A DNA stretch of 32,000 nt from Sinorhizobium meliloti (GCF_017876815.1 NZ_JAGIOS010000003.1:1410001-1442000); one strand, 5' to 3'; shown: positions 17,073 to 31,972, numbered from the stretch's first letter. Notes: a model not told the origin generated them from the letters alone. A program made the numbers and translations.

Positions 17073-17075
17073 TCG

Positions 17076-17101
17076 ATCTAGCCCTTACATCTAGCCCTTA
17101 A
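17076..17101. repeat. 13-bp tandem duplication ATCTAGCCCTTA(C/A) x2 in the virB6-virB8 spacer
   Basis: 17076-17088 and 17089-17101 differ only at the last base. On the coding strand the sequence reads TTAAGGGCTAGATGTAAGGGCTAGAT-CGA-ATG(virB8). Confidence 0.9.
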
Positions 17102-17111
17102 ATTCGCGTCC

Positions 17112-18140
17112 TCAGCGAGGCATGCTGTTGCTGCTAATGCGGTTCTGCATCGCCTCCGCAGCGGCGTTGCGAATATTGGTTCTCATGCCTTCCTGGGTAC
17201 GTGCCCTGGCTTGCATCCCGGCGTTGCCAATTGATGCCGCCAGTCGTTGTCCGCCCGACAGGGCGGATACTGGTCCTGATATGCCTGCAAATCGGCCGAC
17301 GGCGCGCGCAACGTTGCCAATCCCGGCGGCCACGCCACCGGTAATGCCCTGCGCGAGAACCTGAATGTTGAAGAGTACAAATGCGCCCGCGGCGCAAAGC
17401 AGCAGGAAAGCGGAAATGTCGCTAAGCTGAAGTTCCCGTTGGTTTGCAGCGCTCGTGACCTTTGTCAGTTCCGGGTCCATGGCTGAGATCAGGAATGCAG
17501 CCACGACGTAGACGAATAGCGGGATTAGCGCATACATCAGCACCTGCTGGAACCAGGCGACGCCCATGCCTCTTGTCTGTTCGAAGAGCATGCAGCCGAT
17601 GAAGATCGGTGCGGTCCCGATCAGCACCCACATCATCACCTTGGCAAGGAGTAGGATCGCCAGAGCCACTGCAATGAAAACCGCCACCGCAAGCATGATC
17701 AGAAAACCGATCATGGACGGCAGCACCGCAAAATAACCGGACTGTTCCGCAAAGGCAGAAGCGGCCTCGTTTGCCGTCTTCCAGATCATCGAAAGGCCGT
17801 TTGTCGGCTCTGTGATTCCGGTGCCTGTGGCGGTCAGGATCGCCCGGCCGACGTCCTCTGGCGTGTTGTTCAGCCAGGAATAGAAAAGCGTGTTGAAATA
17901 GTTCCACTCCCTGACCAGCGCCAGAATGATCAGCATACGGGCTACGCGGCCAATGATCTCGCTGACGCTGACGCGAGCCGTTCCCATGAAAAGCTGGAGG
18001 CCGTAGTAGCCCACATATGCAATGAACATGATGGTGAGCAGCGGCACGATCTCATCGCCGACAATCCCATAGGCCCGGGAAGAAAAATTCGCGCCGGTCT
18101 GTTCAATTCTGTCCAGCAGATCGCCTAGAAAATCGTGCAT
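17112..18140 (-). CDS. virB6: VirB6/TrbL polytopic inner-membrane protein
   Basis: 342 aa with at least 6 hydrophobic helices. Lies in the VirB6 position of the operon and has a Gly/Ala-rich C-terminal tail. Confidence 0.85.
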   Translation of the reverse strand: MHDFLGDLLDRIEQTGANFSSRAYGIVGDEIVPLLTIMFIAYVGYYGLQLFMGTARVSVSEIIGRVARMLIILALVREWNYFNTLFYSWLNNTPEDVGRAILTATGTGITEPTNGLSMIWKTANEAASAFAEQSGYFAVLPSMIGFLIMLAVAVFIAVALAILLLAKVMMWVLIGTAPIFIGCMLFEQTRGMGVAWFQQVLMYALIPLFVYVVAAFLISAMDPELTKVTSAANQRELQLSDISAFLLLCAAGAFVLFNIQVLAQGITGGVAAGIGNVARAVGRFAGISGPVSALSGGQRLAASIGNAGMQARARTQEGMRTNIRNAAAEAMQNRISSNSMPR

Positions 18141-18155
18141 CGTTGCAAATTGTCC

Positions 18156-18383
18156 TTATTCAGCCGCCGTCGCCTCAATGGCAGCGAAGGCGGCCGCTGC
18201 GTCACCGTTGACGCTCATCATCGGGCCGCATTCTTGGTGAGGATCCGGCACGTAAGACGTCAGGTTGGCAGGTCTCTTGCAGGGGGCGGTCTTCTCCTTC
18301 GCCGCGGTACCGCAGCCGGCCAGGCCGGCCGCGATCAGGACGAGAAACAGAACCTTTGCGGTCGTGGTGTTTTTACTGGTCAC
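18156..18383 (-). CDS. small lipoprotein (VirB7-like or entry-exclusion-like)
   Basis: 75 aa. Lipobox LIAAGLAG|C. C-terminal ..ECGPMMSVNGD.. resembles the P-x-x-x-[LV]-N motif of VirB7 as I remember it. GTG start overlaps the virB5 3' end, and the SD is weak. Confidence 0.6.
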   Translation of the reverse strand: MTSKNTTTAKVLFLVLIAAGLAGCGTAAKEKTAPCKRPANLTSYVPDPHQECGPMMSVNGDAAAAFAAIEATAAE

Positions 18384-19074
18384 TGTAGGTGAGCGCCTTC
18401 TTCGAGTTGGAAATGTCCGTCAGGAGTCGCTGGTTATCGGCCTGAAGCGAAGACACGGCGCCGTTCATGACGCCGATCAATTCGTTGATCGTCAGGCCAG
18501 CTTGCACCTGAAGCTGAGTGTTCTGATCGATCGATCCTTTGATGTCTTTGGCCTGGCCGATATTTGCGCCCGCCTGCTCGAAAGAGGTGCGGCGAGTCTG
18601 GACGGCCTGCTGCGAGCCAGTCACGAGCGCCGCGACACCGAGGACGGTGTTGACCATCTCTTCGTAAGACTTGTCGCCCGAAAACGAGCTGCCCGCCTGC
18701 CCGGACAGGTTCTTCACCAGTTGCAGGCCGTTGATGAAGGTCGTTGCGACCTTGGCAACATCGCCGCCCATGCTTCCGAAGTTCGGAACGCCGCCAGACA
18801 TCAGGCTATCGAAGGACGGCATTTGAGAGACGCTGAAGCCATTGCCGACGGCAAGGTTCTGCATCTGATTGGCGTCGCTACCGCGATCGCCAGTTACCGC
18901 CTGTAGGGTCTCCTGCACCGTTTTCAGGACTTCCTTGTTGGTGCCGAGAATGTCGTCTGTGGTTTTCGACGTTCTCTGCGCAATCTCAAGATTGGCAGCG
19001 TCGATGACCGGGACTTGCGCGAAAGCTGTAGACGCAAGGGCTATCGAACACGCCGACAAAATCGAAGGCTTCAT
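18373..19074 (-). CDS. virB5: VirB5/TrbJ-like minor pilus/adhesin component
   Basis: Start taken at the ATG at 19074, preceded by GAGGAG. Signal peptide MKPSILSACSIALASTAFA|QVPVIDAANL. Helical, Q/N/T-rich mature protein in the VirB5 position. Confidence 0.8.
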   Translation of the reverse strand: MKPSILSACSIALASTAFAQVPVIDAANLEIAQRTSKTTDDILGTNKEVLKTVQETLQAVTGDRGSDANQMQNLAVGNGFSVSQMPSFDSLMSGGVPNFGSMGGDVAKVATTFINGLQLVKNLSGQAGSSFSGDKSYEEMVNTVLGVAALVTGSQQAVQTRRTSFEQAGANIGQAKDIKGSIDQNTQLQVQAGLTINELIGVMNGAVSSLQADNQRLLTDISNSKKALTYSDQ

Positions 19075-19085
19075 GGCAGTTCTCC

Positions 19086-20174
19086 TCATTGAGCGGTCAA
19101 CATCAGATCTACGTTGGCTTCGCGTTCCCGCTTCTGGACGCAAGCCTTCTCAGTCGGGCTCCATTCAAGCCCCTCGCGAGGATCGCAAATGCCAGTCGTT
19201 TTGCGGTCCGTCTCATCGTCATCCTTCTTGAAGTCGCTCGTACGTGATGCGCCTGAAAGATTGCCCACATCGACCGCACTTCGAGAATTCATGAGGTCCG
19301 CCATCGTCGTGCCGAGGCGGATGACCTGGTTCATCATTTCGAGGTTGGCATTTCGCGCGCCGGAATTATGGTCCCAACTGTCCTGAATTCTCCCGCTGGA
19401 CATGGCGCCCAACTGCTGCAGCCAGGAGGCAACATTCCCGCTGCTTTCCCCGATCGCCTCGGACGTCGCCATGGAGTTGATGGTGGAATCCCGCATGCCG
19501 GTGAAGGCTGTAGACCCGCCGCCATAGTTCAAAGGGATGTTGGCAACGTCGGAGCCGCCGAAGGCGGGGAGCCACTTTTGGGTGATGTTTGCGACATACC
19601 CTTGCGTTTCCTTAAATGGCGGAATGCCGCCATATTTCTGGACGTTGCCAGGTCCTGCGTTATAGGCAGCCAGTGCGAGATTCGCGTTGCCGTTGAAGCG
19701 CCGGAGCTGTTGTTTCAGGTAGCGCGCGCCGCCACGAAGATTGTCTTCCATGTCAAATGGATTGACCCCGAGATCCTTTGCCGTACCCGGCATGAGCTGA
19801 GAAAGGCCAATGGCGCCGACCGGCGATTTCGCACAGGGATTGAACCGGCTTTCTTGGTAGACGAGCGCCATGAAGAGGCTTTCGTCGACGCCCTCTTCCT
19901 GGGCCACTCGCTTCACGAGGCCGGTGATTTCCGGGTTGGCCGTTGCAGCGGAAGCGGCATCACCGCTGCGACCTGGACGATACAATGAGCAGGTCACGCT
20001 CTTGCTGACCGTATGACGGTCACTATCCGTCTTCTCGATTTCCGTCGTCGTCTGGTCGCGTTTGGTGTCGGTCTCGAGCACCTCGCCGTCAAGCACCGGC
20101 ACCTGAGGGTGCGCCGTTCCGAAGGCACCAAGCCACAGCGCAGAAATCACCCACAAAGCAGGACTCTTCCTCAT
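19086..20174 (-). CDS. second lytic transglycosylase (SLT domain) with VirB5-like N-terminus and long C-terminal extension
   Basis: ATG at 20174 makes an ATGA overlap with the virB4 stop and is preceded by GGGAGAAGG. SLT motifs are VYQESRFNP (catalytic Glu), [10 protein letters not shown] and [10 protein letters not shown]. The mature N-terminus [11 protein letters not shown] matches the virB5 product. Confidence 0.85.
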
Positions 20175-22630
20175 TCGGCCTTCTCCCATCCGCAAAATTT
20201 AGCCAGCCAATTTTCAGGCTCGCCGCCATATTGTTCCCGAAGCGCCGCGCACTCCTCGACGGTCTCCTTGCGGCCGGAGAGCACCTTCACGAGATCGGGC
20301 ATGGCGGAGAGATCGAGCCGAGCGATGACCGAGTCATTGCCGTGCTTGATCAGGAAAGTTCGCTTTTCGGGTGGAGTGTTCTTGATGAAGTTGAATTCCT
20401 TCACCGTCAGGCCAAAGCGCTTGATGTAGCTCTCTTCGTCGGCCCGCGGGTTCGGAAAGTGAATGTTCGTCGCCGACTGCTCGATCAGCGTATGCGAGGC
20501 TTTTGCCTTGGCGATATCCGCCGCGGACTGGGTGCCGAAGCCAACAATGCCGTTGAGCTTTCGGATGGTTTTCATCTTGTCGACGATGAACGCCGAAAAG
20601 GTCTCGTCCATAAGGAGTTGCCAGCCCTCGTCCATGAAGAACATGACCGGGTTCCCGTCGAGCAGCTCGTCAAGACGATGATAGAGGTACATCAGCGCCG
20701 GCGTGCGGAGATCCTCATTGCCGAGGATGTTCGTCATGTCGAACCCAAAGACGCTGCGACCCGAGAAAGAGAGGACGTCGTGCTGAGCGTTGAAGAGCCA
20801 CGCCTTTTCACCTTCGATCCAAGGACGAAGGCGAGAGTGAAGGTCATTGGCATCCGCCCGCGACCGACCCACAAGCAAGGCGGCCAGGTTCGCTAGGTTC
20901 CGTTCCGCCGCAGGTTCCTGCATCAGGCGGACGATCGCCCGCTCAAGCGTATCCTCGTCTTCCTGAGTGAAGTCACTGCGATCACCGGAGCGCAGCATTG
21001 CCTTCAGGAGGCGAAGGAGAAATTCGCGGTTTGGGCCGGTATTTTCGAGCTGCAGCGGGTTAAAGCCGGTTGGCGTTCCCGGTGACAGCACCTCATATGA
21101 ACCGCCAATCGCCCTTACGAAGATTTCCGCGCCGCGATCCTTGTCGAAGAACACGGCCTTTGGCGTCGGTGAAACGCGCATCGCCTGTGCGAGCAGGAAG
21201 GTCAAAGCGACCGTTTTACCGGAGCCGGTTGGTCCCGTGACGAGGAAGTGCCCGATGTCGCGGCGATGGAAGTTGAACCAGTACGGCGTCTGCGACGTGG
21301 TTTCGAGGATCGTGATCGGCAGTCCCCAATGAGTGCGATCGGCCTGGCCCGTCGCGAAATTGTGCATGGAGGACAGGCCGGAAAAATTCGCGCTCGACAA
21401 CATCGCTTTGCGAGCAATGTAGCTGTGATTGCCGGGCAGTTGCGCCCAAAATCCCGCTTCGAGGTTCAGATCCTCGCGAAGCCAGGTGAGGTTCATGTCG
21501 GTGAGGCAAGCACCGAGTTCGGAAACGGTGCGGCTAAGGCCCGGGAGATCGCGGGAGAGGCATAGGAGCGAAAGATGGTGGAAACCGAAGACGGCTTCCT
21601 GGTTCATCAGGCTATTGAGCGCATAGTCGATATCCTGTTCAACTGTGCTACCGGACTCGTCCGAGGCTCTGATCTGCCTCTGCAATCGACTAATACGTTC
21701 TTGAGCGATCGGCTTGTCGGCGATGGTGAAGGATTGCGTCAGAATGAATTCGTGGTTCACCTGCAGCAGGCCGTCCAGCATTCCCGGCCCGGTGAAGGGC
21801 GGATATTCCTTGATGGACAGCAGCGCCCCAAAGCGGGTGTCTGCATAGACGGCCGCTTGAGCTTGCATCGTCCGCTTGCTGAAATGCAGTCGCGACGTTC
21901 CGACATAATTGCGAATGCCCATGCGTGGCAGGCGCATCTTGCGCGGCACACCGCAGCTCAGGATCGCATTGAAGAACTCGCAGGGTTCCGAGTAAGGCTC
22001 GCCTTTCTCCTTCTCTTCATGCACTTCAATGTTGGCTTCGTCGTCATTCCTGCGACGATAGGTAATTCCGAGCGCCCGGGCTCCATACTTGTGCAGATCG
22101 CGGACGATGTTGCCGATCAGCTCCTCGAGCTCTGTAACATCTTCGCGCGTTCGCTGGACCCGAGCGTCCCTGTTTGCCTTGTCAAAGAGCCTCTTCAACG
22201 AGTCGCCGACGCCGAGGGCGCCCCGCATCCCAGACCGAACGATCGTCAAATATATTTCATTCGTAAACATGCGCTTGTGACGCAGTTGCCCCATGTAGCG
22301 CTTGTTCAACAGGTCGCAGAATGGTTCATCGAACGCGCCACCGATCTGCGTTTCGACCTCTCTCCGGATCACGGTCGACCAAAGAGAATAGCGGCTCGAC
22401 CCCAAAGCACGGATCATCGTGTTTTGGACGACCGAACGCATGTTGAGCTCAGCCTGGTCCTCCGTCTGAAAGAACAGTCCATCGAGTTTGATCACGCTTA
22501 GAAGCGAGCCGTTTTCCAGCCCGATCACTGTATCGGCGACGTGTCGGAGATACGGAATATGAGTCGACATGGGCCGCTCGTTACTGGCGACCCGGCCGAA
22601 TCCAAGCTCTTCTTTGACGACTTTCAGCAT
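20171..22630 (-). CDS. virB4: VirB4 ATPase
   Basis: Start taken at ATG 22630 (MLKVVKEE..), 2 nt after the virB3 stop. Walker [10 protein letters not shown] and Walker B FFMDEGW. The ORF-track extension to 22861 overlaps virB3 and is rejected. Confidence 0.93.
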
Positions 22631-22632
22631 GG

Positions 22633-22932
22633 TCACGGTCCGTAGGAGTTGGTGCCCCAAAAGCGCTTGTTGGGCGTGCGGGGCGTCTTGCGGGAAGTCA
22701 CCTGCATCACATCGAGGATCCTGTTGTCCCAGGTGCAGAGCGAGAACAGGACAAGGTAAGCAACCGGCGCGATCAGCAACGCCAGGAGGTCGTTCGTTGC
22801 AAGCCAGCCGATAATGGTGACGCCAACGATCAGCACCACCGCCATGTAGGGGACGCCCCAAAGCGTTGGGGACCGGGTTAACCCGATCACCAACGGCGTC
22901 AAAGCTGGCTTTTCGTCCTGAAACTCACTCAT
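22633..22932 (-). CDS. virB3: VirB3
   Basis: 99 aa. Motif LTRSPTLWGVP followed by two hydrophobic helices. Lies immediately upstream of virB4. Confidence 0.88.
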   Translation of the reverse strand: MSEFQDEKPALTPLVIGLTRSPTLWGVPYMAVVLIVGVTIIGWLATNDLLALLIAPVAYLVLFSLCTWDNRILDVMQVTSRKTPRTPNKRFWGTNSYGP

Positions 22933-22935
22933 CGG

Positions 22936-23274
22936 TCACTGACCGACCGCCGAGATCATCTCGTCGACGATCGCCGGTGCACCAAACACCAGACCGATGC
23001 CCATCACGACCGCGCCGGCCGTGAACCACGATAGGCGTCCGGCGAATGTCAGAAACCCAAGGCCGATAACGGCAATGGTCGCGAGCAGGCGACCGAACGG
23101 GCCCGTGATGAAATCGACGATCATCTGCACCGCCGTCTGCAACGGCCCGAACGCGCCGCCTGCGCTCTGCGCTAGAGCCACATCGGCCCCGGCGATCTGG
23201 ACTGCAGCCACGATGCCGAGCGTCGCTGCGAGCTTGAAAGCCTGAGACTTCCTCGTTTGCATTTCAAATTGCAT
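22936..23274 (-). CDS. virB2: VirB2/TrbC-type pilin precursor
   Basis: Start at ATG 23274, preceded by AAGGAGAG. Long leader ending ..ADVALA|QSAGG, then two hydrophobic helices. Confidence 0.85.
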   Translation of the reverse strand: MQFEMQTRKSQAFKLAATLGIVAAVQIAGADVALAQSAGGAFGPLQTAVQMIVDFITGPFGRLLATIAVIGLGFLTFAGRLSWFTAGAVVMGIGLVFGAPAIVDEMISAVGQ

Positions 23275-23285
23275 GTTTCTCTCCT

Positions 23286-24251
23286 TCAAAAGTGCATGAC
23301 ACCGCCGACAAACTTGCCGGTCTTCTTCACGGCGATGACACCGGCGTCGCCGCTGTCACTCGCATCCGAGACCGCCTGCGGAGCGGCGGCCGGCCTCGCC
23401 TTGCCTTTTGCCGACGGCATTGGCAGCCCGAGTTGGTAGTTCACCACCTTGGCGACGTATCCGACTGTTTCCTGGAACGGCGGGATGCCGCCGTGTTGGT
23501 AGATCCGCTGTTCGCCGCTGTTGTAGGCAGCCGCGACCAGGAGCGGGTTCTGAAACTCATCAAGCAAAAAGCGCAGGTACTTCATCCCGCCCTCGATATT
23601 CTGAGCGGGATCACAGATGTCCTTGACGCCGAACCGCGCAGCCGTCGCAGGCATGAGCTGCATCGGTCCGCGCGCGCCCTTTGGGGAATTGCGGCTTTGG
23701 TCAAAGCCGCTCTCTGCCCAGGCGATGGCCGTCGCGAAGACTTCATCGACGCGATATTTGCGCGCCGTCTGTACAACCAGAGACTTAACCTCTTCCGAGC
23801 TGAGCGGAGACGGACCGCAGTCTTTGGTGTTGTCATCGATCTGCCGAACTGCACCAAGTTGCTGTATTGAGCCCGCGGGAACTTGCGGTTCATCAACCCT
23901 GTTCGGCACGTCGTTGGAGGAAGCGAAATTGCTCAAGACTGCATCAATATGATTCATGCCCCCAAAATCATGGGGGCTTTTGTCAGCTTTGTACTGAACC
24001 GCATTTTCCTGCTTCACAACGCCATCAGCGCCTAGCACGAACTCCTTCTCTGAGCCGCGCCAGTGCTCATCGAAGTTCGTTGCAAGATCCGCCTGGCGCT
24101 CGATCGTCCAAGTGCCTTTTTTTGTTATAATATCTGCAGATTTCGGCCCATCTTGGGCGTAAGAAATCTGAACCCAGCTCGTGCACAAAAGGGCGCTCCC
24201 GGTAAAAGCGGTCCAGCTCACAACGCCTGAAAATCTAGCCCTTTTATCCAT
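23286..24251 (-). CDS. virB1: VirB1-like lytic transglycosylase
   Basis: Start at ATG 24251 (MDKRARFSG.. signal peptide). SLT motifs IAWAESGFD, GPMQLMPATA and AAYNSGEQ. First gene of the operon. Confidence 0.85.
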   Translation of the reverse strand: MDKRARFSGVVSWTAFTGSALLCTSWVQISYAQDGPKSADIITKKGTWTIERQADLATNFDEHWRGSEKEFVLGADGVVKQENAVQYKADKSPHDFGGMNHIDAVLSNFASSNDVPNRVDEPQVPAGSIQQLGAVRQIDDNTKDCGPSPLSSEEVKSLVVQTARKYRVDEVFATAIAWAESGFDQSRNSPKGARGPMQLMPATAARFGVKDICDPAQNIEGGMKYLRFLLDEFQNPLLVAAAYNSGEQRIYQHGGIPPFQETVGYVAKVVNYQLGLPMPSAKGKARPAAAPQAVSDASDSGDAGVIAVKKTGKFVGGVMHF

Positions 24252-24410
24252 CGCCGCGCGCCTAACTTGCGGTGTTGTGATCGAAACGAAAACCAACTAA
24301 GCTGGTGAAGATGTCGCATCGATTTGGTTCATCGATACAACTTTTCGAGGCAGACTTAAACCCCCTATTGCAGGGGAACGATCGGAAGCAATATGGGTAA
24401 GGGCTAGAAA

Positions 24411-25019
24411 ATGAAACGGACCATCATCGCCGCACTCGTAAGTTGTGCAACCGCAACACCTGCGTTGTCCGTCTCGGACATCAACAAGGATTACATCAAA
24501 TCGCTCGCAGCGCCGGGCAAGACGGTTCTCGTGCTCGAATATTACGACGGAAGCGGAAAGGTCGCCGATCGGAAGGGCTATGCAACAACGGCCGGATTTA
24601 AGGCCGTTTCACCGACCGACTTTCGCGTGGATGACAAGACAACACTGCACCTTTTTGGCCTGGAGCCATGCAAGGGCGAAATGGTCAATCGCAGTGAAGA
24701 CTTCGCCGGGAGCTGCACCGATTATGCGCAGCAACAGCTTCAGATCCTGTTACAAAATCCGAAGGTCGTGTTTTGCCGTGCCTTTGTGAGCGAGCAAGGT
24801 TCGCCCGTCCAGAACGCCACCTGCTACGGCTACTATAATTTCCCCGGTAGCCTCGACTCCGTCGATATGTTCGAGGAGCAGCTTCTGTCGCTCGGCGCGC
24901 TCCGCCTCGCAAAAAAGCGAGATGGGACTCCCGTTCGTCCGGATCTCTCCAAAGCTGAGGAGATTGGCCAGAAGGGGTCATTCGGAATGTGGGCCGATCC
25001 GAGGGTGAAGGGTCAATGA
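24411..25019 (+). CDS. secreted staphylococcal-nuclease (SNase)-like protein, catalytic residues degenerate
   Basis: 202 aa with a signal peptide. SNase-fold landmarks are LHLFGLEPCKGE (in place of RLxGIDAPE) and a C-terminal ..AEEIGQKGSFGMW. Four Cys lie at positions shared with the next two genes. Confidence 0.7.
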   Translation: MKRTIIAALVSCATATPALSVSDINKDYIKSLAAPGKTVLVLEYYDGSGKVADRKGYATTAGFKAVSPTDFRVDDKTTLHLFGLEPCKGEMVNRSEDFAGSCTDYAQQQLQILLQNPKVVFCRAFVSEQGSPVQNATCYGYYNFPGSLDSVDMFEEQLLSLGALRLAKKRDGTPVRPDLSKAEEIGQKGSFGMWADPRVKGQ

Positions 25020-25552
25020 GAAGGGCTCTTTCCCTTCTGTCGGCTCTCTTGCCGACATCCGTATCCGCAGCGCCCGCAGGCTATTTCGATCTTCTTCCTG
25101 GCGTCACCCTGGAAACTGGCGAGACGTGGGTTTCCAATGGTGAAAGATTCCGTCTCTACGGCGTCCAGTCCTGTTTGCGCGGCACTGCCTATACGGACAA
25201 GCACGGGCAGAAACGTGACTGCGGCGAGGCGTCCCTTGCCGTGCTGGCGGCCTATATCAAAGACACCAAACCTGTTTGCGCCCCGGTGGTGAAGAAAGAC
25301 GGTATCGCTTACGTCGTCTGCTACGCCACAGTTGGGAAGGAGCGGCTTGATCTGGCAAACGTCCTGATCACGAGCGGATACGCCTTCGCGTCCCTCAACG
25401 GTGAGGGCATGCCCTATCACGTCCCCTATGCCGTGGCTGAGAAACTTGCGCGCGATAAGCGTGCCGGCCTCTGGCAGTTCGAAGACGTCCAGCATCCGGC
25501 CATTCTCTTGAGCCGCGAGGTGAATGCGCGAACCAAGAAGGCAGATCAATGA
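25016..25552 (+). CDS. secreted SNase-like protein, catalytic residues degenerate
   Basis: ATGA overlap with the previous stop. Signal peptide MRRALSLLSALLPTSVSA. Landmarks FRLYGVQSCLRG, CGEASLAVLAAYI and EKLARDKRAGLW. Confidence 0.75.
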   Translation: MRRALSLLSALLPTSVSAAPAGYFDLLPGVTLETGETWVSNGERFRLYGVQSCLRGTAYTDKHGQKRDCGEASLAVLAAYIKDTKPVCAPVVKKDGIAYVVCYATVGKERLDLANVLITSGYAFASLNGEGMPYHVPYAVAEKLARDKRAGLWQFEDVQHPAILLSREVNARTKKADQ

Positions 25553-26250
25553 AGCGATACCTACTTGCAGCCGCCGCGCTCGCTACGATCCCCCAGGCAG
25601 CGACAGCCGCGGATCTCATCAAGACTCCGGCCGCGGCGGCTCGGCCACCGCAGAGATTGAGCGAAGCTCCAATCTACCAAAATCCGGTCTACAACGGCCA
25701 AGTCGCCGTCATGGACGGCCGCACCCTGTGGTATCCGCAATATGCGCAGCGCGTTCGCCTCGTCGAGATCGACGCGTGCGAGCTCCCACAGTGGGCGATT
25801 GATCCGAAGTGGGTGGATCGCGAGCGGCAAAAGGCGCCGTCACCCGTTCCGTGCGGCCCACTTGCGAAGGCTTGGCTCAAGAGGACCATAGGCAGCAGAC
25901 CGGTCGAATGTACCGTCGTAGCGTATGGCAATGACGGTATCCCCCAGGCCCGCTGCACGTCAGCCGGCCGCGATATTGCGGTCGAGATGCTTCGTGTCGG
26001 ATGGGCGCGTGTCGCGTCGCCCTATTCATACAACAGCCAATACCTGGTCTATCAGCAGAACGCGATGGCGGCTCGCTATGGCATGTGGGCCACTTACGTC
26101 CTCGACATGAACGAGTGGCGTCGCAAGGCCGTCGACAAGACGCTAGACCGCGAGCCGATCGCTGATTTCAACCTGCTTGTCGAACGGGAAAGAGAAATAT
26201 CGCCTCCCTTCATCGACGCGCGGAAAAAGCCCAAGAGGACAGACCGATAG
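25549..26250 (+). CDS. secreted SNase-like (thermonuclease family) protein retaining Arg/Asp/Glu of the active-site motif
   Basis: ATGA overlap with the previous stop, plus a signal peptide. VRLVEIDACE aligns with SNase FRLLLVDTPE. Also DGRT, CGPLAKAWLKRTI and ..AARYGMW. Confidence 0.8.
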   Translation: MKRYLLAAAALATIPQAATAADLIKTPAAAARPPQRLSEAPIYQNPVYNGQVAVMDGRTLWYPQYAQRVRLVEIDACELPQWAIDPKWVDRERQKAPSPVPCGPLAKAWLKRTIGSRPVECTVVAYGNDGIPQARCTSAGRDIAVEMLRVGWARVASPYSYNSQYLVYQQNAMAARYGMWATYVLDMNEWRRKAVDKTLDREPIADFNLLVEREREISPPFIDARKKPKRTDR

Positions 26251-27769: not shown

Positions 27770-28105
27770 CTACTCCATAGGCTCGGTCGTGCTCAAGACG
27801 GCATCCATTTCTTTCGGCTTGAGCGAGCCTCGCGTCGCGAACAAATACGCGGCCAAGTGCGTCAACTTTTGCCATCCTTGTTGATCGTTGCACGGCCGGT
27901 GGTTCACGATCCTTAGCCTGGCGGCCTCTTCCTCTTTCGTCACCTTGAGCAGAGCCTTTGCGTAGACCACGTTGGTTACATCGCCAGCCGCGCGGCGTTC
28001 ATCCCATTCGTGCACCGCCTCAGAAGTCGCCGATAGCGCCGCTATATGCCGCTCGATCATCGTATCCAACGACACGGTGGCTTCCATTCCAAAATCCTCT
28101 GTCAT
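27770..28105 (-). CDS. conserved hypothetical protein, paralog A of the 31616-31972 product
   Basis: 111 aa from ATG 28105, with GAGGG upstream. About 55% identical by eye to paralog B over about 92 aa (ERHIAA..WDE.RAA..VTNV.YA..LL.V..EEA.RL.I.N.RP...KL..AAYL.ATRG.L.P..M.AVL). Confidence 0.7.
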   Translation of the reverse strand: MTEDFGMEATVSLDTMIERHIAALSATSEAVHEWDERRAAGDVTNVVYAKALLKVTKEEEAARLRIVNHRPCNDQQGWQKLTHLAAYLFATRGSLKPKEMDAVLSTTEPME

Positions 28106-28568: not shown

Positions 28569-28598
28569 TCAGCCTCTGTTTTGAATCAGAGGAGCTGA
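28569..28598 (+). promoter_or_regulatory. hairpin sequestering the Shine-Dalgarno of the 54-aa ORF
   Basis: TCAGCCTCTG (28569-78) pairs with CAGAGG-AG-CTGA (28587-98), giving 10 bp with a 2-nt bulge. The SD GAGGAG (28589-94) lies inside the 3' arm, and the ATG is at 28601. Confidence 0.55.
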
Positions 28599-28600
28599 CG

Positions 28601-28765: not shown

Positions 28766-28772
28766 GCGGCTC
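28751..28772 (+). terminator. hairpin overlapping the stop of the 54-aa ORF
   Basis: GAGCCGCC-TCACTA-GGCGGCTC, a perfect 8-bp stem, followed by GCGATCTTTCC (weak T-tract). Confidence 0.45.
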
Positions 28773-28834
28773 GCGATCTTTCCTGAGTATCACTGTAACG
28801 GCGGCCGACGCCAACTGCATATTCGCCGGGCCGA

Positions 28835-29959
28835 TCATTTGTCCGCACACGATAGAAACCGCTTCAAGCTCAAACCCGCCAATAAAATGTAAGGCGGCAT
28901 GGCGAGCGAATAGTGACCGCAGTTCAGTTCCAAAACATTCGGCCTGACTCCGACGTCCTTCAGCTTCTGAATGAGGCGTCTGGATAGGGCGGGCAACACC
29001 ACCTTGTCCCGCGTAGCCAACACGACGTGAAGTTCGAGATCGGGCCGTGCCAGATTATGCGCGTAATTCTCTAAGTTGAGCGGACCCCATGCCCTTCGGA
29101 GATCGGTAAGCTCAATTACAGGCTCAAGGCTATCGCGTATCGATCGGGTCGCGCGCCCCGTCCAAACCATGTCTGCGAGACTTCCCGCCGTCAAAAATAA
29201 CGAGGCCTTCGATACGGCCGGATCATGCGCAGCGATCAATCCCGCAACCCAGGAGCCAAGGCTCATGCCGAGAACCGAGACCTCTCGATAGCCTTCGCTC
29301 TTCAGCCAGCGGACGAGCTTTCGCCCATCCCATACGGCCTGCCTTACAGACTGGATCGTTCGGCCGAGATTCGAACTAAGCATATAATCGGCGTACAGCG
29401 AGCCGGGACGGCTGCGCTCGAAGTGATAAGGCATAGCAATCTCGACAACCGTGATTCCACGCTGCGAGAAAAACTTGGCAATCTGACGATTTCGGGTGCT
29501 GGCATTCCAGTGATGAAAAATCACCATTGCCTGATCGAGCGAGCCGCTCTCGGTGATTTTTGCCCAAACGACGTTGTTCTCTTCGACGTCAGTAGAAATG
29601 TCTGATGGAAATTTGAGCCACCCATCGTGCCTTTCAAAGCCCTGACCGCTCCCGCTCGGCGGTTCGAAGAAGCTTGGATCGGACACGGCCTTGTCCGCCA
29701 GGACACAAAATTCATCGAGTGTTTCGACCTTCTTCGCGCTTGGAAAGGCGCGACCGGCGTCAAGGACGAAAGCGGTTGTTTTCTTCGCTTCCTCACCGCG
29801 TCGGGCCCGCCGCTCGTCCCAACGATCAAGCCAACTATGATACACTTTGATTGCTTCCCAACTCGTCTGCGCGCCACCGCCCGAACTCTGGATCAAAGAG
29901 GCCGTACGTCGCGAGCAGCGTTCCAGTGCCCAGGAGGATCGAAAACCCGTCAAATGCAT
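28835..29959 (-). CDS. alpha/beta-fold hydrolase (possible RcgR-like lactone/ester hydrolase)
   Basis: Nucleophile elbow VLGMSLGSW (G-x-S-x-G), acid candidate VLATRDKVV, His candidate LNCGHYS, and oxyanion-region HHWNAS. Start is uncertain. ATG 29959 overlaps the upstream gene by 125 nt. GTG 29845, with GGGAAG upstream, would overlap by only 11 nt. Confidence 0.75.
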   Translation of the reverse strand: MHLTGFRSSWALERCSRRTASLIQSSGGGAQTSWEAIKVYHSWLDRWDERRARRGEEAKKTTAFVLDAGRAFPSAKKVETLDEFCVLADKAVSDPSFFEPPSGSGQGFERHDGWLKFPSDISTDVEENNVVWAKITESGSLDQAMVIFHHWNASTRNRQIAKFFSQRGITVVEIAMPYHFERSRPGSLYADYMLSSNLGRTIQSVRQAVWDGRKLVRWLKSEGYREVSVLGMSLGSWVAGLIAAHDPAVSKASLFLTAGSLADMVWTGRATRSIRDSLEPVIELTDLRRAWGPLNLENYAHNLARPDLELHVVLATRDKVVLPALSRRLIQKLKDVGVRPNVLELNCGHYSLAMPPYILLAGLSLKRFLSCADK

Positions 29960-31406
29960 CGATCAGCAAGTAGCTGGCAAAGAGTAATGCTACGACCGCC
30001 GACATCTTCCACAAGGGCGCATGAAAGCGCTTTCCGAACCGGATGGAGCCGTACAGAAAGCCAACACAGGACGAAATAGCGACAAGGAGACTGCTGTAAT
30101 GGGTCGGCATTCGATAGCTGAAGCTGTTGCTATCGTTTCTCTGCCCGTTCAAGACTGAAGACATATCGTTGGCTAGCCAGGTCAGGATATCTTCGCCGTT
30201 CGAGGCCAGGTAAGCGCTTTGAGCCTTCATGCATATGGCGACTAGAACACCCAGGACCGTACACCGAAAGATTCCCCGCATCACCCTGAGGCCGATTTCG
30301 CCGCCCGCGCGTCGATATTCCTCCAGGCGCATCTTCGATCCCTCTTCAATTTTCCCAAGATCATGGAGGATCGTATGAAGCAGGATGAGGCCCGCGAAGA
30401 GCAGATAAAAGCAAAGACACATGTAGAGGTAAGCGAGACCAGTGAACACAACGGTCATCGGCACCGATATGACTTCAGGGCGCACAATGGCTAACTTGCC
30501 CCAATCTACCGCATAGTTGCCACCGCCGTTGATCAACGGGATCAAGCACACGCCGATCCACTGGAAAAGACCGGCGAACAACACACAGATCAGAAAAACG
30601 GCCCAGTATGTATACGAAGAAGCCTCAACGTTGCGCGCCCAAGCATCGTCGCTTTCCATCTTCTCGCTATACCCTGTCAGCCTGAGGCGTCCTTCGTCTT
30701 TCCAGAAGACCAGCAGCTCCGTCACGAGCGCAAAAAACAGGGGCAAAAGCACCATGAAAAGGAATGTCCAATTCGGCGCCCAAAGAAACCCAACCTGCTT
30801 AACGACACCATCCGCGCGGCCATAAGTGGCGCTGTGGATCCCCACAATGTACGACAAAAATCCAAGCGCGGAGGCACCGGCAAATACCGAGGCGGGCAAG
30901 TTCAAGGGCGATCCACGGGTGAAAAGCGCCTCCGATGTTCTTGCCAAGTTGAAACCCTGTCGGCCCGCAGGCCGTGTCTGATTATCGACCATCACAGGCG
31001 GCGGCATGTCTGGAACCCGCAGCGCCGTGCTGCTACCCGCCTTCTTTGAATCTCGCCTCTTGGCGGTTAGCCGTAATTGCGCCGCGCTGAGCTCCATCTG
31101 CCATTCGCTGGTCGCTTCGGGATCGTCGCACCCAAAGATCCGCGCCAGCCAACGAATGTTGGAGGTGCTAATCCCCTTCTCGTTCTGTTGAAACCAGAGC
31201 TGGACCGTCCGCAAATCGACCCCGATCCGGTTGGAGTCGATCTGTGAAATCGCCTCTGCCAAAAGCTCCGGCGTCCATGGGCCTTGGGGAAACCCGTCAC
31301 TGCCTAATGGCCGGCCTGCTCCCGCAGCGGCTAACTGCTTGAACAGTTCCTTGAAATCGCTCCCGTCCTTGGGCGGTGCGACAAAAATCTTTCCGTTCTT
31401 TTCCAA
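29835..31406 (-). CDS. HTH-like N-terminal domain fused to a polytopic membrane domain of about 8-9 TM helices (possible RcgA-like)
   Basis: 523-aa ORF with a TTG start and no in-frame ATG for about 100 codons. The N-terminus WTPELLAEAISQIDSNRIGVDLRTVQLWFQQNEKGISTSNIRWLARIFG looks like an XRE-type HTH. Many hydrophobic helices follow. Confidence 0.7.
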   Translation of the reverse strand: MEKNGKIFVAPPKDGSDFKELFKQLAAAGAGRPLGSDGFPQGPWTPELLAEAISQIDSNRIGVDLRTVQLWFQQNEKGISTSNIRWLARIFGCDDPEATSEWQMELSAAQLRLTAKRRDSKKAGSSTALRVPDMPPPVMVDNQTRPAGRQGFNLARTSEALFTRGSPLNLPASVFAGASALGFLSYIVGIHSATYGRADGVVKQVGFLWAPNWTFLFMVLLPLFFALVTELLVFWKDEGRLRLTGYSEKMESDDAWARNVEASSYTYWAVFLICVLFAGLFQWIGVCLIPLINGGGNYAVDWGKLAIVRPEVISVPMTVVFTGLAYLYMCLCFYLLFAGLILLHTILHDLGKIEEGSKMRLEEYRRAGGEIGLRVMRGIFRCTVLGVLVAICMKAQSAYLASNGEDILTWLANDMSSVLNGQRNDSNSFSYRMPTHYSSLLVAISSCVGFLYGSIRFGKRFHAPLWKMSAVVALLFASYLLIDAFDGFSILLGTGTLLATYGLFDPEFGRWRADELGSNQSVS

Positions 31407-31410
31407 AGGC

Positions 31411-31566
31411 TTATAGGCCCAAATTTCGTTTCGGTTCGTATCCTATCGTGCCTTCAGCCTCAATCAATGGTCTTAACGCCCGCAATGCAACTTGATCGGT
31501 GAGGCATTCCATCATGCTATTGTTGTCGTCATCCAGTTCGCGTTCGTCCCGTGACACCGGCGACAT
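31411..31566 (-). CDS. possible small leader ORF (51 aa) upstream of the membrane protein
   Basis: MSPVSRDERELDDDNNSMMECLTDQVALRALRPLIEAEGTIGYEPKRNLGL. GGAGAA abuts the ATG, which is too close for a good SD. Ends 2 nt before the TTG of the next gene. Weak call. Confidence 0.25.
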   Translation of the reverse strand: MSPVSRDERELDDDNNSMMECLTDQVALRALRPLIEAEGTIGYEPKRNLGL

Positions 31567-31615
31567 TTCTCCGAGCCCGAGCGCGGCTTTGAGTGCGTCA
31601 GCGCCGGATCGCAAG

Positions 31616-31972
31616 GTGGGACAAAAAGAAGAGGGCGGGGCGGAAACTGCGATTTCCCTTTGCGAGTTGATGGAGCGGCATATAGCGGCACAACTCGCGA
31701 CCGCGGACGCCGTTCGTGCGTGGGATGAACCCAGGGCGGCCAGCAAGGTTACGAACGTAGCCTATGCAAACCGACTGTTAGATGTTGCGCGGGATGAAGA
31801 AGCCTGCCGGCTTGCGATCATCAATTACAGGCCGCGGGGCGATCGGGAATCGAGGCTGAAGCTGGCCTATATGGCAGCTTACCTCATCGCGACACGTGGC
31901 ACCCTGCAACCCAGTCAGATGAATGCCGTCTTGGAAGACACTCGCGATCGGCCAAGCACATCGGTTTCCTGA
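31616..31972 (+). CDS. conserved hypothetical protein, paralog B of the 27770-28105 product
   Basis: Homology to paralog A begins at ..AETAISLCELMERHIAA... GTG 31616 is chosen as the start, with ATG 31670 as the alternative. The upstream part of the ORF-track call (31499-31615) is low-complexity Ser-rich and is probably not coding. Confidence 0.65.
   Translation: MGQKEEGGAETAISLCELMERHIAAQLATADAVRAWDEPRAASKVTNVAYANRLLDVARDEEACRLAIINYRPRGDRESRLKLAYMAAYLIATRGTLQPSQMNAVLEDTRDRPSTSVS

What the first reader, a model, noticed from the sequence alone, without database searches (positions are those of the whole stretch)
28835..31406. Two-gene module next to the T4SS: HTH-polytopic membrane protein plus alpha/beta hydrolase, a candidate conjugation-control system (rcgA/rcgR-like?)
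The sequence shows a minus-strand pair whose ORFs overlap.
- The first is a 523-aa protein. It has an XRE-like HTH segment, a linker of about 60 aa, then about 8-9 TM helices. That combination is unusual for a DNA binder and suggests a membrane-tethered sensor/regulator or a transporter.
- The second is a 374-aa alpha/beta hydrolase with a GMSLG nucleophile elbow and plausible Asp/His residues.

The pair lies within 5 kb of a VirB/D4 conjugation operon and is bracketed by paralogous small genes.

From memory, a gene pair called rcgA and rcgR was described between conjugation genes of a Rhizobium favelukesii plasmid. As I recall, rcgA is required for transfer and transporter-like, and rcgR is inhibitory and annotated as a putative quorum-lactone hydrolase. 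I cannot verify homology here. Either way the mechanism (ligand, substrate, DNA target) would be largely unknown.
Basis: partly seen in the sequence, partly recalled or inferred. Interest (0 to 1): 0.7.

Follow-up and report, generated by a model that had tools for sequence, protein, structure and literature searches.

The report
Known rcgA/rcgR conjugation-control gene pair
The two overlapping genes are rcgA and rcgR, a published pair that controls plasmid transfer in rhizobia, here in the traR-less "group Y" arrangement beside a VirB/VirD4 secretion system on a Sinorhizobium meliloti pSymA-type megaplasmid, so the finding is correct but already known.

Summary

- **Identity.** The 523-aa protein (29835-31406, minus) scores 1039 bits against NCBIfam NF047336 RcgA (cut-off 325). 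The hydrolase scores 632 bits against NF047337 RcgR (cut-off 182).
- **Gene models.** RcgR most likely starts at a GTG at 29845. That makes it 336 aa, not 374, and it overlaps the rcgA stop by 11 nt.
- **Source.** The DNA is 100% identical to S. meliloti SM11 pSmeSM11c and RU11/001 pSymA. Castellani et al. 2022 explicitly place both plasmids in rcgAR "group Y": virB/virD4 downstream, rptA upstream, no traR.
- **Flanking genes.** The two small paralogs belong to the rptA family.
- **Linkage.** rcgR follows rcgA in 78 of 80 other genomes.
- **Possibly new points:**
  - The Ser195-Asp280-His311 triad is invariant.
  - In some Rhodobacterales plasmids a bona fide RcgA is paired with a lysophospholipase-L2-like hydrolase instead of RcgR.
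  - An (A)CGAAA-repeat leader and a TTG start precede rcgA across both orders.
- **HTH.** The N-terminal helix-turn-helix is only weakly supported.
- **Mechanism.** It remains unknown, and published genetics exist only for homologs.

Novelty: already known. Interest: low to moderate.

The parts
29835..31406 (-). rcgA: 523-aa inner-membrane protein with an N-terminal soluble domain, a variable linker and 7-8 TM helices
   Evidence: The ORF is. NCBIfam NF047336 scores 1039 bits against a cut-off of 325, covering residues 1-523. PGAP gives the same coordinates on identical DNA. Hydropathy is and the AlphaFold2 helices.
31122..31280 (-). Codes for RcgA residues 43-95, the HTH-like segment (PWTPELLAEAIS...RTVQLWFQ...NIRWLARIFGC)
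   Evidence: This is the most conserved part of the N-terminal domain; R66 and W71 are invariant in 84 diverse members. hhalign aligns it to XRE HTH helices 2-4 at P = 0.013. Pfam and PDB matches are weak. Coordinates were checked. DNA binding is not shown.
29889..30902 (-). Codes for RcgA residues 169-506, the polytopic membrane domain
   Evidence: Hydrophobic segments lie at 169-189, 212-229, 266-285, 319-346, 378-395, 438-454 and 468-502. AlphaFold2 pLDDT is 70-90 over this region. Foldseek gives only non-significant hits, topped by insect gustatory and olfactory receptors (E 0.06-2.7, TM-score at most 0.33).
28835..29845 (-). rcgR: 336-aa alpha/beta-fold serine hydrolase, starting at a GTG
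   Evidence: NCBIfam NF047337 scores 632 bits against a cut-off of 182, with model positions 1-332 aligned to ORF residues 39-370. PGAP uses the same start.
29835..29845 (-). 11-nt overlap of the rcgA stop and the rcgR start (GTGTATCATAG), suggesting translational coupling
   Evidence: The sequence was read directly. rcgR sits at a constant offset of +1579 to +1603 from the rcgA start in 78 of 80 loci. Co-transcription was shown for pLPU83a only (PMC9601222).
29255..29269 (-). GMSLG nucleophile elbow (Ser195 codon at 29261-29263). Asp280 is at 29006-29008 and His311 at 28913-28915
   Evidence: Coordinates were checked. All three residues and both glycines are invariant in 81 RcgR sequences. 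They also align with the triad of the non-RcgR hydrolases that partner RcgA in Roseobacter and Phaeobacter.
31424..31438 (-). Conserved (CGAAA)x3 repeat in the rcgA leader, about 17 nt before the TTG start (window variant CGAACCGAAACGAAA)
   Evidence: It occurs at a fixed distance upstream of rcgA in 63 of 79 loci. That compares with 13 other matches in 1.53 Mb on both strands. It is present in traR-type loci too (L018, L026, L076, L079). ACGAAA repeats also precede rcgA in Phaeobacter and Leisingera plasmids. Its function is not shown.
31440..31467 (-). Promoter-like hexamers upstream of rcgA: TTGATT (31462-31467), a 16-nt spacer, then TAGGAT (31440-31445)
   Evidence: These are conserved blocks in a consensus of 61 unique upstream regions. 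Coordinates were checked. The generic sigma-70 scan did not call it. No transcription start data are available.
31670..31972 (+). rptA ortholog, divergent from rcgA (the ORF can extend upstream to the GTG at 31499)
   Evidence: It is 64% identical to RptA of S. meliloti (P0462, named RptA by UniRef and nr). The family lies divergently upstream of rcgA in 26 of 80 loci. The 2022 paper places rptA upstream of rcgA in group Y.
27770..28105 (-). Second rptA-family paralog, downstream of rcgR (the ORF can extend to 28300)
   Evidence: It is 57% identical to the upstream copy and 48% identical to RptA. The same two-copy arrangement is seen in L003.
11255..24296 (-). virB-type mating-pair-formation operon plus the virD4 coupling protein, the T4SS this module accompanies
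   Evidence: ORFs are. PGAP names on near-identical DNA are VirB2, B3, B4, B9, B10, B11 and T4CP. Pfam finds SLT and T4SS domains. PMC13274422 classes the SM11 pSymA Mpf as rhizobial type IVb.
24989..26250 (+). Two staphylococcal-nuclease-like genes in the operon divergent from virB, between the T4SS and rcgAR
   Evidence: Pfam SNase matches and NCBIfam matches. A homolog of the first gene lies within 10 kb of rcgA in 46 of 80 loci. In pLPU83a a thermonuclease-family gene is up-regulated when rcgR is deleted (PMC13055273).

Best explanation
**What it is.** This is the rcgA-rcgR operon of a 'group Y' rhizobial conjugation module. The gene order is rptA <-> rcgA-rcgR, a second rptA paralog, nuclease-like genes, then virB1-11/virD4. 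It lies on a pSymA-type megaplasmid of Sinorhizobium meliloti.

**Shown by sequence here.**
- RcgA is a 7-8 TM inner-membrane protein with a conserved cytoplasmic N-terminal domain.
- RcgR is an alpha/beta hydrolase with an intact Ser195-Asp280-His311 triad.
- RcgR is probably translationally coupled to rcgA through an 11-nt overlap.

**Shown by experiment on homologs only** (pLPU83a; the group Y proteins of pSmeLPU88a complement).
- RcgA is indispensable for transfer, sits in the membrane and does not change expression of transfer genes.
- RcgR lowers transfer frequency.

**Inferred for this locus.**
- RcgA acts after transcription, as an accessory of the VirB/VirD4 machine (assembly, or recruitment of substrate or coupling protein).
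- RcgR restrains transfer through its catalytic activity on an ester or lipid-like molecule at or near the membrane. It probably does not bind a traR promoter, since this replicon region has no traR.

I put the identity and the opposite genetic roles at about 0.9. I put the 'catalysis-dependent, TraR-independent' step at about 0.5.
For: **Identity.**
- NF047336 scores 1039 bits and NF047337 scores 632 bits.
- The source collections name the homologs RcgA and RcgR.
- The DNA is 100% identical to SM11 pSmeSM11c and RU11/001 pSymA. PMC9601222 lists both in group Y.

**Arrangement.**
- virB/virD4 lie downstream, the rptA ortholog lies upstream, and there is no traR.
- rcgR follows rcgA in 78 of 80 genomes.

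**Genetics of homologs.**
- An rcgA deletion abolishes transfer and an rcgR deletion raises it.
- S. meliloti LPU88 (group Y) genes complement both mutants.
- RcgA is membrane-localised and its deletion causes no expression changes. RcgR is found in both cytosolic and membrane fractions.

**Catalysis inference.**
- The triad and the GxSxG motif are invariant in 81 sequences where only 21% of columns are invariant.
- In the Roseobacter, Phaeobacter and Leisingera plasmids examined, a true RcgA (384-566 bits) is followed by a lysophospholipase-L2/Hydrolase_4-type enzyme instead of RcgR. That enzyme keeps the same triad.
- An RcgR from a traR-less plasmid restores repression on a traR plasmid. 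This argues for a target that is not plasmid-specific.
Against: - No experiment has been done on this locus or on any group Y plasmid in its native setting.
- In LPU88 the pLPU83a rcgR deletion had no phenotype.
- The authors favour models in which RcgR acts on the traR promoter or on TraR itself. The only measured molecular effect is traR transcription.
- No substrate is known, and no catalytic mutant has been reported in the two papers.
- The hydrolase swap could be coincidental gene neighbourhood in one Rhodobacterales clade; only four plasmids were inspected.
- 100 of 231 PLSDB plasmids carrying rcgA are typed non-mobilizable, so the pair is not always beside a complete transfer system.
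Confidence: 0.8

Rival explanations
1. RcgR is a signal-quenching lactonase, as its NCBIfam name suggests ('putative quorum lactone hydrolase'). It would hydrolyse an acyl-homoserine lactone or related lactone that otherwise activates transfer. RcgA would import or sense that signal.
For: - RcgR has an alpha/beta-hydrolase fold with an intact triad.
- Dienelactone hydrolase is among its structural matches (1din).
- The 2022 authors raise this hypothesis.
- From my own knowledge, unverified here: alpha/beta-fold AHL lactonases exist (AidH, AiiM, DlhR).
Against: - TraR of pLPU83a does not respond to AHLs and the plasmid lacks the AHL synthase gene.
- This window has no traR or other LuxR-type gene.
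- There is no significant match to the Pfam dienelactone hydrolase family or to any lactonase family.
- The best structural matches are acetyl-xylan esterases and an uncharacterised protein.
- The replacement partner in Rhodobacterales is lysophospholipase-like, not lactonase-like.
Confidence: 0.15
2. RcgA is a membrane-tethered one-component transcription factor, BcrR-like (an HTH fused to TM helices). It would bind the rcgA/rptA intergenic region or the virB promoter and switch transfer genes on. RcgR would remove its ligand.
For: - The conserved N-terminal segment aligns to XRE HTH helices 2-4, with weak HTH_3 hits.
- The predicted topology puts the N-terminus in the cytoplasm.
- A conserved repeat element and promoter-like boxes lie just upstream of rcgA.
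- rcgA transcript levels fall when rcgR is deleted.
Against: - Deleting rcgA in pLPU83a changed no conjugation gene at the RNA or protein level and did not affect traR expression.
- The HTH evidence is statistically weak: E 0.07-0.2, hhalign probability 3%, and an 8-residue insert in the turn.
- The model is unconfident in this region.
Confidence: 0.12
3. RcgR represses by a non-catalytic route, as in the authors' models. It would either bind its own promoter region (transcriptional interference) or sequester an activator protein. In this locus the target would be the rptA/rcgA divergent promoter or RptA, rather than traR or TraR.
For: [quoted passage not shown]
- rptA occupies the position that traR holds in group X, divergent from rcgA.
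- The conserved leader/promoter element is shared by both groups.
Against: - RcgR has no recognisable DNA-binding domain.
- Strict conservation of the triad, and replacement by a different serine hydrolase, are hard to explain for a pure binding protein.
- RptA-family proteins have no detectable domain, and an activator role for them has not been shown.
Confidence: 0.2
4. The module is an inactive relic of an accessory plasmid that co-integrated into the megaplasmid, and it has no current role in transfer.
For: - The region sits in a 1.6-Mb pSymA-type replicon, next to an IS21-family element and a split DUF3604 gene.
- No relaxase or oriT lies in the window.
- Many rcgA-bearing plasmids are typed non-mobilizable.
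Against: - All virB/virD4, rcgA, rcgR and rptA reading frames are intact.
- The region is 98-100% conserved across many Sinorhizobium plasmids of different sizes.
- The related pSmeLPU88a Mpf is reported to be functional as a helper.
Confidence: 0.08

Closest known systems
RcgA/RcgR of Rhizobium favelukesii pLPU83a ('group X', rhizobial group I-C; Castellani et al. 2022 mBio, 2026 Microbiol Spectr)
   Same: - Same two protein families, with full-length matches far above the cut-offs.
- Same gene order and overlap, and the same location inside a conjugation region.
- Same conserved (CGAAA)3 leader upstream of rcgA. This was seen here in traR-type loci L018, L026, L076 and L079, which resemble group X.
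   Different: - pLPU83a has traR divergent from rcgA, a Trb-type Mpf and adjacent Dtr genes.
- This window has rptA in that position, a VirB-type Mpf with virD4, and neither traR nor Dtr genes.
- The only known molecular read-out (repression of traR) therefore cannot apply as such.
RcgA/RcgR homologs of S. meliloti LPU88 plasmid pSmeLPU88a ('group Y')
   Same: - Same group in the published phylogeny, with the same virB/virD4 plus rptA context.
- These homologs complemented the pLPU83a rcgA and rcgR deletions, so the activities are conserved.
- The literature groups the SM11 pSymA Mpf with that of pSmeLPU88a (type IVb).
   Different: - I could not retrieve the LPU88 sequences to measure identity.
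- Here the module sits on a 1.6-Mb symbiotic megaplasmid rather than a small accessory plasmid.
- No native-context mutant has been reported for either.
RptA of S. meliloti (Pistorio et al. 2013; UniProt I6QLD4)
   Same: - The gene divergent from rcgA is 64% identical to RptA, and the gene downstream of rcgR is 48% identical.
- RptA is reported to participate in conjugal transfer by an unknown mechanism.
   Different: - There are two copies here, in inverted orientation around rcgAR.
- The annotated lengths (100 and 111 aa) are shorter than the 173-aa RptA entry, although longer ORFs (157 and 176 aa) are open.
- The 2013 paper was not available to read.
TraR/TraI/TraM quorum-sensing control and rctA/rctB control of rhizobial plasmid transfer
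   Same: Each is a plasmid-borne control layer placed next to the Mpf genes and keeps transfer low under laboratory conditions.
   Different: - There is no LuxR-type, LuxI-type or TraM gene in the window.
- No annotated regulator lies divergent from virB. The divergent gene is a 202-aa protein with no family match, followed by nuclease-like genes.
- RcgR is an enzyme-fold protein, not a DNA-binding repressor or anti-activator.
BcrR-type membrane-bound one-component regulators (XRE HTH fused to TM helices); comparison from my own knowledge
   Same: The architecture is similar: an N-terminal HTH-like cytoplasmic domain followed by TM helices.
   Different: - RcgA has 7-8 TMs and a 50-70-aa variable linker.
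- The HTH is only weakly detectable.
- Published RNA-seq shows no regulatory phenotype for rcgA.
CE7 acetyl-xylan esterases / cephalosporin-C deacetylases and PDB 4z8z (structural neighbours of RcgR)
   Same: Alpha/beta-hydrolase fold with an N-terminal helical extension and a Ser-Asp-His triad. Foldseek E-values are 3e-12 to 1e-8, and the 4z8z sequence-profile E-value is 8e-4.
   Different: Sequence identity is only 10-15%. TM-scores are 0.5-0.6 on a model with pLDDT 73. No carbohydrate context is present, and substrates are unknown.

Membership tests
RcgA family (NCBIfam NF047336 conj_memb_RcgA; Pfam PF28285) | Full-length sequence match above the curated cut-off | tested here: met
   1039.3 bits against a cut-off of 325, with residues 1-523 on model positions 1-537. 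All 120 closest database relatives carry PF28285 and many are named RcgA.
RcgA family (NCBIfam NF047336 conj_memb_RcgA; Pfam PF28285) | Polytopic membrane protein with a separate soluble HTH-like domain | tested here: met
   7-8 hydrophobic segments with N-in charge bias and long TM helices in the AlphaFold2 model. The soluble domain is N-terminal and conserved. Its HTH nature is only weakly supported.
RcgA family (NCBIfam NF047336 conj_memb_RcgA; Pfam PF28285) | Encoded immediately upstream of, and co-oriented with, rcgR in a conjugation region | tested here: met
   There is an 11-nt overlap in the window and the same order in 78 of 80 loci. virB/virD4 lie 4.5 kb away.
RcgA family (NCBIfam NF047336 conj_memb_RcgA; Pfam PF28285) | Essential for conjugative transfer; membrane localisation | not testable with these tools
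   This was shown for pLPU83a RcgA and by complementation with group Y and Shinella homologs. It has not been shown for this locus.
RcgR family (NCBIfam NF047337 hydrolase_RcgR) | Full-length sequence match above the curated cut-off | tested here: met
   632.3 bits against a cut-off of 182, covering model positions 1-332.
RcgR family (NCBIfam NF047337 hydrolase_RcgR) | Alpha/beta-hydrolase fold with a Ser-Asp-His triad | tested here: met
   AlphaFold2 model with pLDDT 73 and Foldseek probability 1.0 to esterases. S195, D280 and H311 are invariant in 81 sequences.
RcgR family (NCBIfam NF047337 hydrolase_RcgR) | Represses transfer by lowering traR transcription | tested here: not met
   This applies to the target only. 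No traR-like gene is in the window (best tblastn E 0.3), and only 4 of 80 related loci have one upstream of rcgA. Repression of transfer itself cannot be tested here.
RcgR family (NCBIfam NF047337 hydrolase_RcgR) | Lactone (quorum-signal) hydrolase activity implied by the family name | not testable with these tools
   No biochemical assay is reported in either paper. There is no significant match to lactonase or dienelactone hydrolase families.
'Group Y' rcgAR arrangement (Castellani et al. 2022) | virB-type Mpf with virD4 downstream, rptA upstream of rcgA, no traR and no Dtr genes in the region; Sinorhizobium plasmids | tested here: met
   The virB/virD4 operon is at 11255-24296. The rptA ortholog is at 31670-31972. 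There is no traR. The DNA is identical to pSmeSM11c and RU11/001 pSymA, which the paper names in group Y.
XRE-family helix-turn-helix (Pfam HTH_3) | Significant profile match of the N-terminal domain | tested here: inconclusive
   HTH_3 matches 3 of 24 members with a best E-value of 0.068. hhalign against six XRE domains gives P = 0.013 and probability 3.3%, with an 8-residue insertion in the turn. The PDB profile's best hit is a homeodomain helix 3 at E 0.22.
Seven-TM ion-channel fold of insect odorant/gustatory receptors | Significant structural similarity of the TM domain | tested here: inconclusive
Known anti-phage defence systems (PADLOC) | Match of any of the five proteins of the module | tested here: not met
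   No hit at E <= 0.01.

The most novel reading that the evidence does not exclude
The conserved unit is not 'RcgA + RcgR' but 'RcgA + an interchangeable membrane-proximal serine esterase/lipase'. That partner is RcgR in Rhizobiales and some Rhodobacterales. In other Rhodobacterales plasmids it is a lysophospholipase-L2-like enzyme, there next to a FadL-type outer-membrane transporter.

On this reading the pair gates T4SS activity through a lipid or hydrophobic ester, independently of TraR and quorum sensing. The deeply conserved ACGAAA-repeat leader with its TTG start would be the point at which the module's own expression is set.
Probability: 0.2. Interest if true: 0.6.

Novelty: already known. 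Interest (0 to 1): 0.25.

Why it matters
rcgA/rcgR form a third control layer for plasmid transfer in rhizobia, alongside TraR quorum sensing and rctA/rctB. The copy in this window sits on a symbiotic megaplasmid. How it works therefore bears on the spread of nodulation and nitrogen-fixation genes.

The literature states that group Y (traR-less) systems have not been studied in their native context. This locus is such a case. The known read-out, traR repression, cannot apply here, so it would force the underlying biochemical activity into view.

- the invariant catalytic triad;
- the replacement of RcgR by a lysophospholipase-like partner in some Rhodobacterales plasmids;
- the conserved ACGAAA-repeat leader.

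None of this changes the fact that the gene pair itself is already described and named.

Tried and rejected
1. **Pfam-A (local copy) on RcgA.** No hit. The family (PF28285) is newer than the copy.
2. **Structure of the RcgA N-terminal domain.** The AlphaFold2 model built from a 76-sequence, >=70%-identity alignment has pLDDT below 55 for residues 1-150.
3. **Foldseek of full-length RcgA against PDB.** No match at E <= 0.001. The insect-receptor resemblance cannot be confirmed or excluded.
4. **Sequence-profile searches of RcgA and its N-terminal domain against PDB.** Nothing significant.
5. **The search for related loci with the diverse alignment A3.** It failed because no stretch was conserved enough. 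The close alignment A1 was used instead, so the 80 loci are biased towards relatives at 66% identity or more.
6. **Fetching pLPU83a by accession.** HG916853 is not in the collection, and the rptA paper is not held. Direct identity to the founding RcgA and RcgR was therefore not measured.
7. **Linkage of rcgA to a MocR-type regulator plus an FMN-binding protein.** This was seen in L001 and L082 only, with no further case among the 80 genome loci or the other plasmid loci fetched. Rejected as coincidence.
8. **Extending the rptA family to other small divergent genes.** Iterative HMM search converged at 29 loci, including the window. The Mesorhizobium small-gene clusters were not reached, and a relationship is unproven.
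9. **The 26-nt inverted repeat at 28444-28565 as part of the rcgAR module.** Rejected, because it travels with the 54-aa ORF and not with rcgAR.
10. **Other screens.** The generic sigma-70 promoter scan found nothing in 27600-32000. Rfam found nothing in the window. PADLOC found no defence family.

Full report

Yes.
- The ORF listing gives a 523-aa ORF at 29835..31406 and a 374-aa ORF at 28835..29959, both on the minus strand.
- The longest-ORF model of the second gene is probably too long.
  - The RcgR family model aligns to residues 39-370.
  - The consensus of 55 homologs begins MYHSWLDRWDE.
  - PGAP annotates identical DNA from the GTG at window 29845 (window = locus L001 + 7699).
- The hydrolase is therefore most likely 336 aa. 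The overlap with the rcgA stop codon is 11 nt, GTGTATCATAG, a typical translational-coupling junction.
- GMSLG is at 29255-29269. The Ser195, Asp280 and His311 codons were verified.
- Family-averaged hydropathy of the 523-aa protein shows six clear hydrophobic segments plus a long one (468-502), so 7-8 TM helices.
- Lys and Arg are concentrated in the N-terminal domain and in alternate loops, consistent with a cytoplasmic N-terminus.
- The pair lies 4.5 kb from the first virB gene.
- It is flanked by two small genes that are 57% identical to each other.

**2. What is it?**

- NCBIfam gives NF047336 'RcgA family putative transporter' at 1039 bits (cut-off 325, end to end). It gives NF047337 'RcgR family putative quorum lactone hydrolase' at 632 bits (cut-off 182).
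- The closest database proteins are named accordingly.
- Window 27700-32000 is 100% identical to S. meliloti SM11 pSmeSM11c (NC_017327.1, 219310-223610) and to RU11/001 pSymA.
- Window 1-25000 matches the same records at 100%, apart from about 2.6 kb that is missing at this place in those records. IS21-family genes lie in the part of the window where this gap falls.

The literature on the pair:
- Castellani et al. 2022 (PMC9601222) defined rcgA as essential for transfer of pLPU83a and rcgR as an inhibitor.
- They described two phylogenetic groups.
  - Group X has traR divergent from rcgA and a Trb-type Mpf.
  - Group Y comprises Sinorhizobium plasmids with a virB-type Mpf plus virD4 downstream, rptA upstream, and neither traR nor Dtr genes.
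- Their discussion names pSM11c and RU11/001 pSymA as group Y members.
- Castellani et al. 2026 (PMC13055273) add three results.
  - RcgR lowers traR transcription and, through TraR, all transfer genes.
  - RcgA is membrane-localised and does not affect expression.
  - RcgR is found in both cytosolic and membrane fractions.

The window matches group Y point by point.
- The virD4-virB11...virB1 genes lie at 11255-24296 on the minus strand.
- No traR-like sequence is present.
- The gene divergent from rcgA is an rptA ortholog. It is 64% identical to the protein that UniRef and nr call RptA of S. meliloti.
- The small gene downstream of rcgR is a 48%-identical paralog.

**3. Independent tests of linkage**

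A scan of one genome per species found 266 stretches encoding RcgA relatives. The 80 best (66-84% identity) were fetched.
- rcgR lies directly downstream in 78 of 80. One exception is cut by the contig end and one (L070) lacks it.
- VirB4-like genes lie within 10 kb in 31 of 80. A nuclease-like gene is present in 46 of 80.
- An rptA-family gene sits divergently upstream of rcgA in 26 of 80. A TraR-type gene does so in only 4 of 80.
- In PLSDB, RcgA is encoded on 231 plasmids of Rhizobiales and Rhodobacterales. Of these, 123 are typed conjugative and 100 non-mobilizable.
- Across 1.84 billion representative proteins the family comprises 285 clusters at 50% identity. The full-length architecture persists in members down to about 25-30% identity.

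**4. Anatomy and what it suggests**

*RcgR*
- The AlphaFold2 model (pLDDT 73) is an alpha/beta hydrolase.
- The triad and the GxSxG glycines are invariant in 81 sequences at 60-92% identity, where only 71 of 336 columns are invariant.

*A swapped hydrolase partner.* This point is not in the parts of the two papers that I read.
- It concerns plasmids of Roseobacter litoralis, Phaeobacter piscinae and Leisingera aquaemixtae.
- Their RcgA homologs pass the NF047336 cut-off at 384-566 bits.
- There the downstream gene is not an RcgR. It is a lysophospholipase-L2 / Pfam Hydrolase_4-type alpha/beta hydrolase, 18-22% identical to RcgR, whose Ser, Asp and His align with those of RcgR.
- In two of these plasmids a FadL-type outer-membrane transporter gene is adjacent.
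- Rhodobacterales RcgA at about 50% identity (Pseudosulfitobacter, Paracoccus, P. inhibens) still pair with true RcgR.
- I read this as evidence that the functional partnership is 'RcgA plus a serine esterase/lipase'. Catalysis would then matter, and the substrate may be lipid-like rather than a homoserine lactone. This is an inference from four plasmids, not a demonstration.

*RcgA*
- The TM domain is modelled with pLDDT 70-90.
- It has no significant structural or sequence relative in PDB.
- The N-terminal domain holds the most conserved motif of the family...GvDLRTVQlWFQdN.kGIS..NIRWLARvFGC....
- It aligns to XRE HTH helices 2-4 in hhalign. The statistics are weak (P = 0.013, probability 3%) and there is an 8-residue insertion in the turn. 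Pfam HTH_3 and a homeodomain helix give E-values of 0.07-0.2.
- The 2022 text places the HTH-like domain at the C-terminus. In this protein, and across the family alignment, it is N-terminal.

*Upstream of rcgA*
- A (CGAAA)x3 repeat lies at a fixed distance before the start codon in 63 of 79 loci, including the traR-type ones. Only 13 other matches occur in 1.53 Mb.
- ACGAAA repeats also precede rcgA in Phaeobacter and Leisingera plasmids.
- The repeat is preceded by conserved TTGATT-N16/17-TAGGAT boxes. It is followed by a TTG start with no Shine-Dalgarno sequence.
- This is a candidate control point for the module's own expression. The 2026 paper reports that rcgA transcripts fall when rcgR is deleted. 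Its function is untested.

**5. How it most likely works**

- *Shown by experiment on homologs:* opposite genetic roles, membrane localisation of RcgA, no expression phenotype for rcgA, and cross-complementation by group Y proteins.
- *Shown here by sequence:* family membership, architecture, the intact triad, the coupling overlap, the group Y context and the absence of traR.
- *Inferred:* RcgA is a post-transcriptional accessory of the VirB/VirD4 machine. RcgR restrains transfer through hydrolysis of an ester or lipid-like molecule at or near the membrane. Because an RcgR from a traR-less plasmid restores repression on a traR plasmid, the primary target is probably common to both contexts rather than a plasmid-specific promoter.
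- *Rivals* (scored in the rival explanations): an AHL/lactone quencher, RcgA as a BcrR-like membrane transcription factor, non-catalytic repression by RcgR, and a decayed relic.

**6. Comparison with the known, and verdict**

- The locus is a member of the RcgA and RcgR families, in the published group Y arrangement, on replicons that the founding paper already lists. Novelty: already known.
- What remains open is the mechanism, especially in traR-less systems. The authors flag this themselves.
- The hydrolase swap, the strict triad conservation, the N-terminal position of the HTH-like domain and the conserved leader repeat are modest additions that make specific experiments possible.
- Interest is 0.25. 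A specialist would not be surprised by the locus itself.

Noticed in passing
window 28444-28565 (+ strand fold), next to the 54-aa ORF at 28601-28765: A 26-nt inverted repeat (92% complementary, 70-nt loop) folds far better than shuffles (-62 kcal/mol, z = -4.5). A short hairpin and a T-run follow it. It occurs as a single copy in 62 plasmids of Rhizobium, Sinorhizobium, Labrenzia and others, with nothing annotated. In L003 and L081 it travels with the 54-aa ORF, not with rcgAR. It could be a small RNA, a leader or an operator; Rfam has no match.
   Followed up: partly
window about 1900-4300 (ORFs 1916-2653 and 2666-4216, minus strand): IS21-family element (IstB-like ATPase plus a Mu/rve-type transposase). 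About 2.6 kb of the window is missing at this position in the otherwise 100%-identical SM11 and RU11/001 records, and these IS21-family genes lie in the stretch concerned. The window therefore comes from a very close relative or another assembly carrying an extra IS copy.
   Followed up: partly
window 6653-10551, minus strand: Two DUF3604 genes lie in tandem. One is intact (657 aa, 6653-8626). The second is split into two ORFs (8623-9897 and 9970-10551) that cover different parts of the Pfam model, so it is probably a frameshifted or interrupted copy.
   Followed up: no
window 24411-27688, plus strand: An operon divergent from virB1 encodes a 202-aa protein with no family match, two staphylococcal-nuclease-like proteins, and 197-aa and 138-aa proteins with no family match. 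A homolog of the first nuclease-like gene accompanies rcgAR in 46 of 80 loci. A thermonuclease-family gene of pLPU83a is reported as up-regulated when rcgR is deleted.
   Followed up: partly
L025, L030, L063 and 8 other loci, about +2720 to +2870 from the rcgA start, opposite strand: Just after rcgR, on the other strand, lies a second copy of the rcgA leader (ACGAAA repeat plus TTG). It is followed by about 10 rcgA-like codons and a stop (MIQNRKFFMDA*). This is a remnant of another rcgA 5' end. The resident rcgA in these loci has a different upstream region, which points to cassette replacement or rearrangement.
   Followed up: partly
L083 3599-4699 and L086 9900-10994: In Phaeobacter piscinae and Leisingera aquaemixtae plasmids, the rcgA plus lysophospholipase-like hydrolase pair is followed by a convergent 'outer membrane protein transport protein' (FadL/TodX-type) gene. 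In L086 the module lies next to an F-type T4SS (TraL/E/K/B/V/C) rather than a VirB or Trb type.
   Followed up: no
L070 (Mesorhizobium sp. M0571): This is the only full-length locus of the 80 in which no RcgR-like gene was found downstream of rcgA. An rptA-family gene is still present upstream.
   Followed up: no
window 31406 and the rcgA starts of the other loci: rcgA uses a TTG start codon with no recognisable Shine-Dalgarno sequence in almost all loci examined, including Rhodobacterales (L083, L086, L087). This suggests deliberately weak or specially controlled translation initiation.
   Followed up: partly
PMC9601222, Results, versus window 31122-31280: The 2022 paper describes the HTH-like domain of RcgA as the C-terminal portion. 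In this protein and in the 84-member family alignment, the conserved HTH-like segment is N-terminal (residues 43-95) and the C-terminus is hydrophobic.
   Followed up: yes
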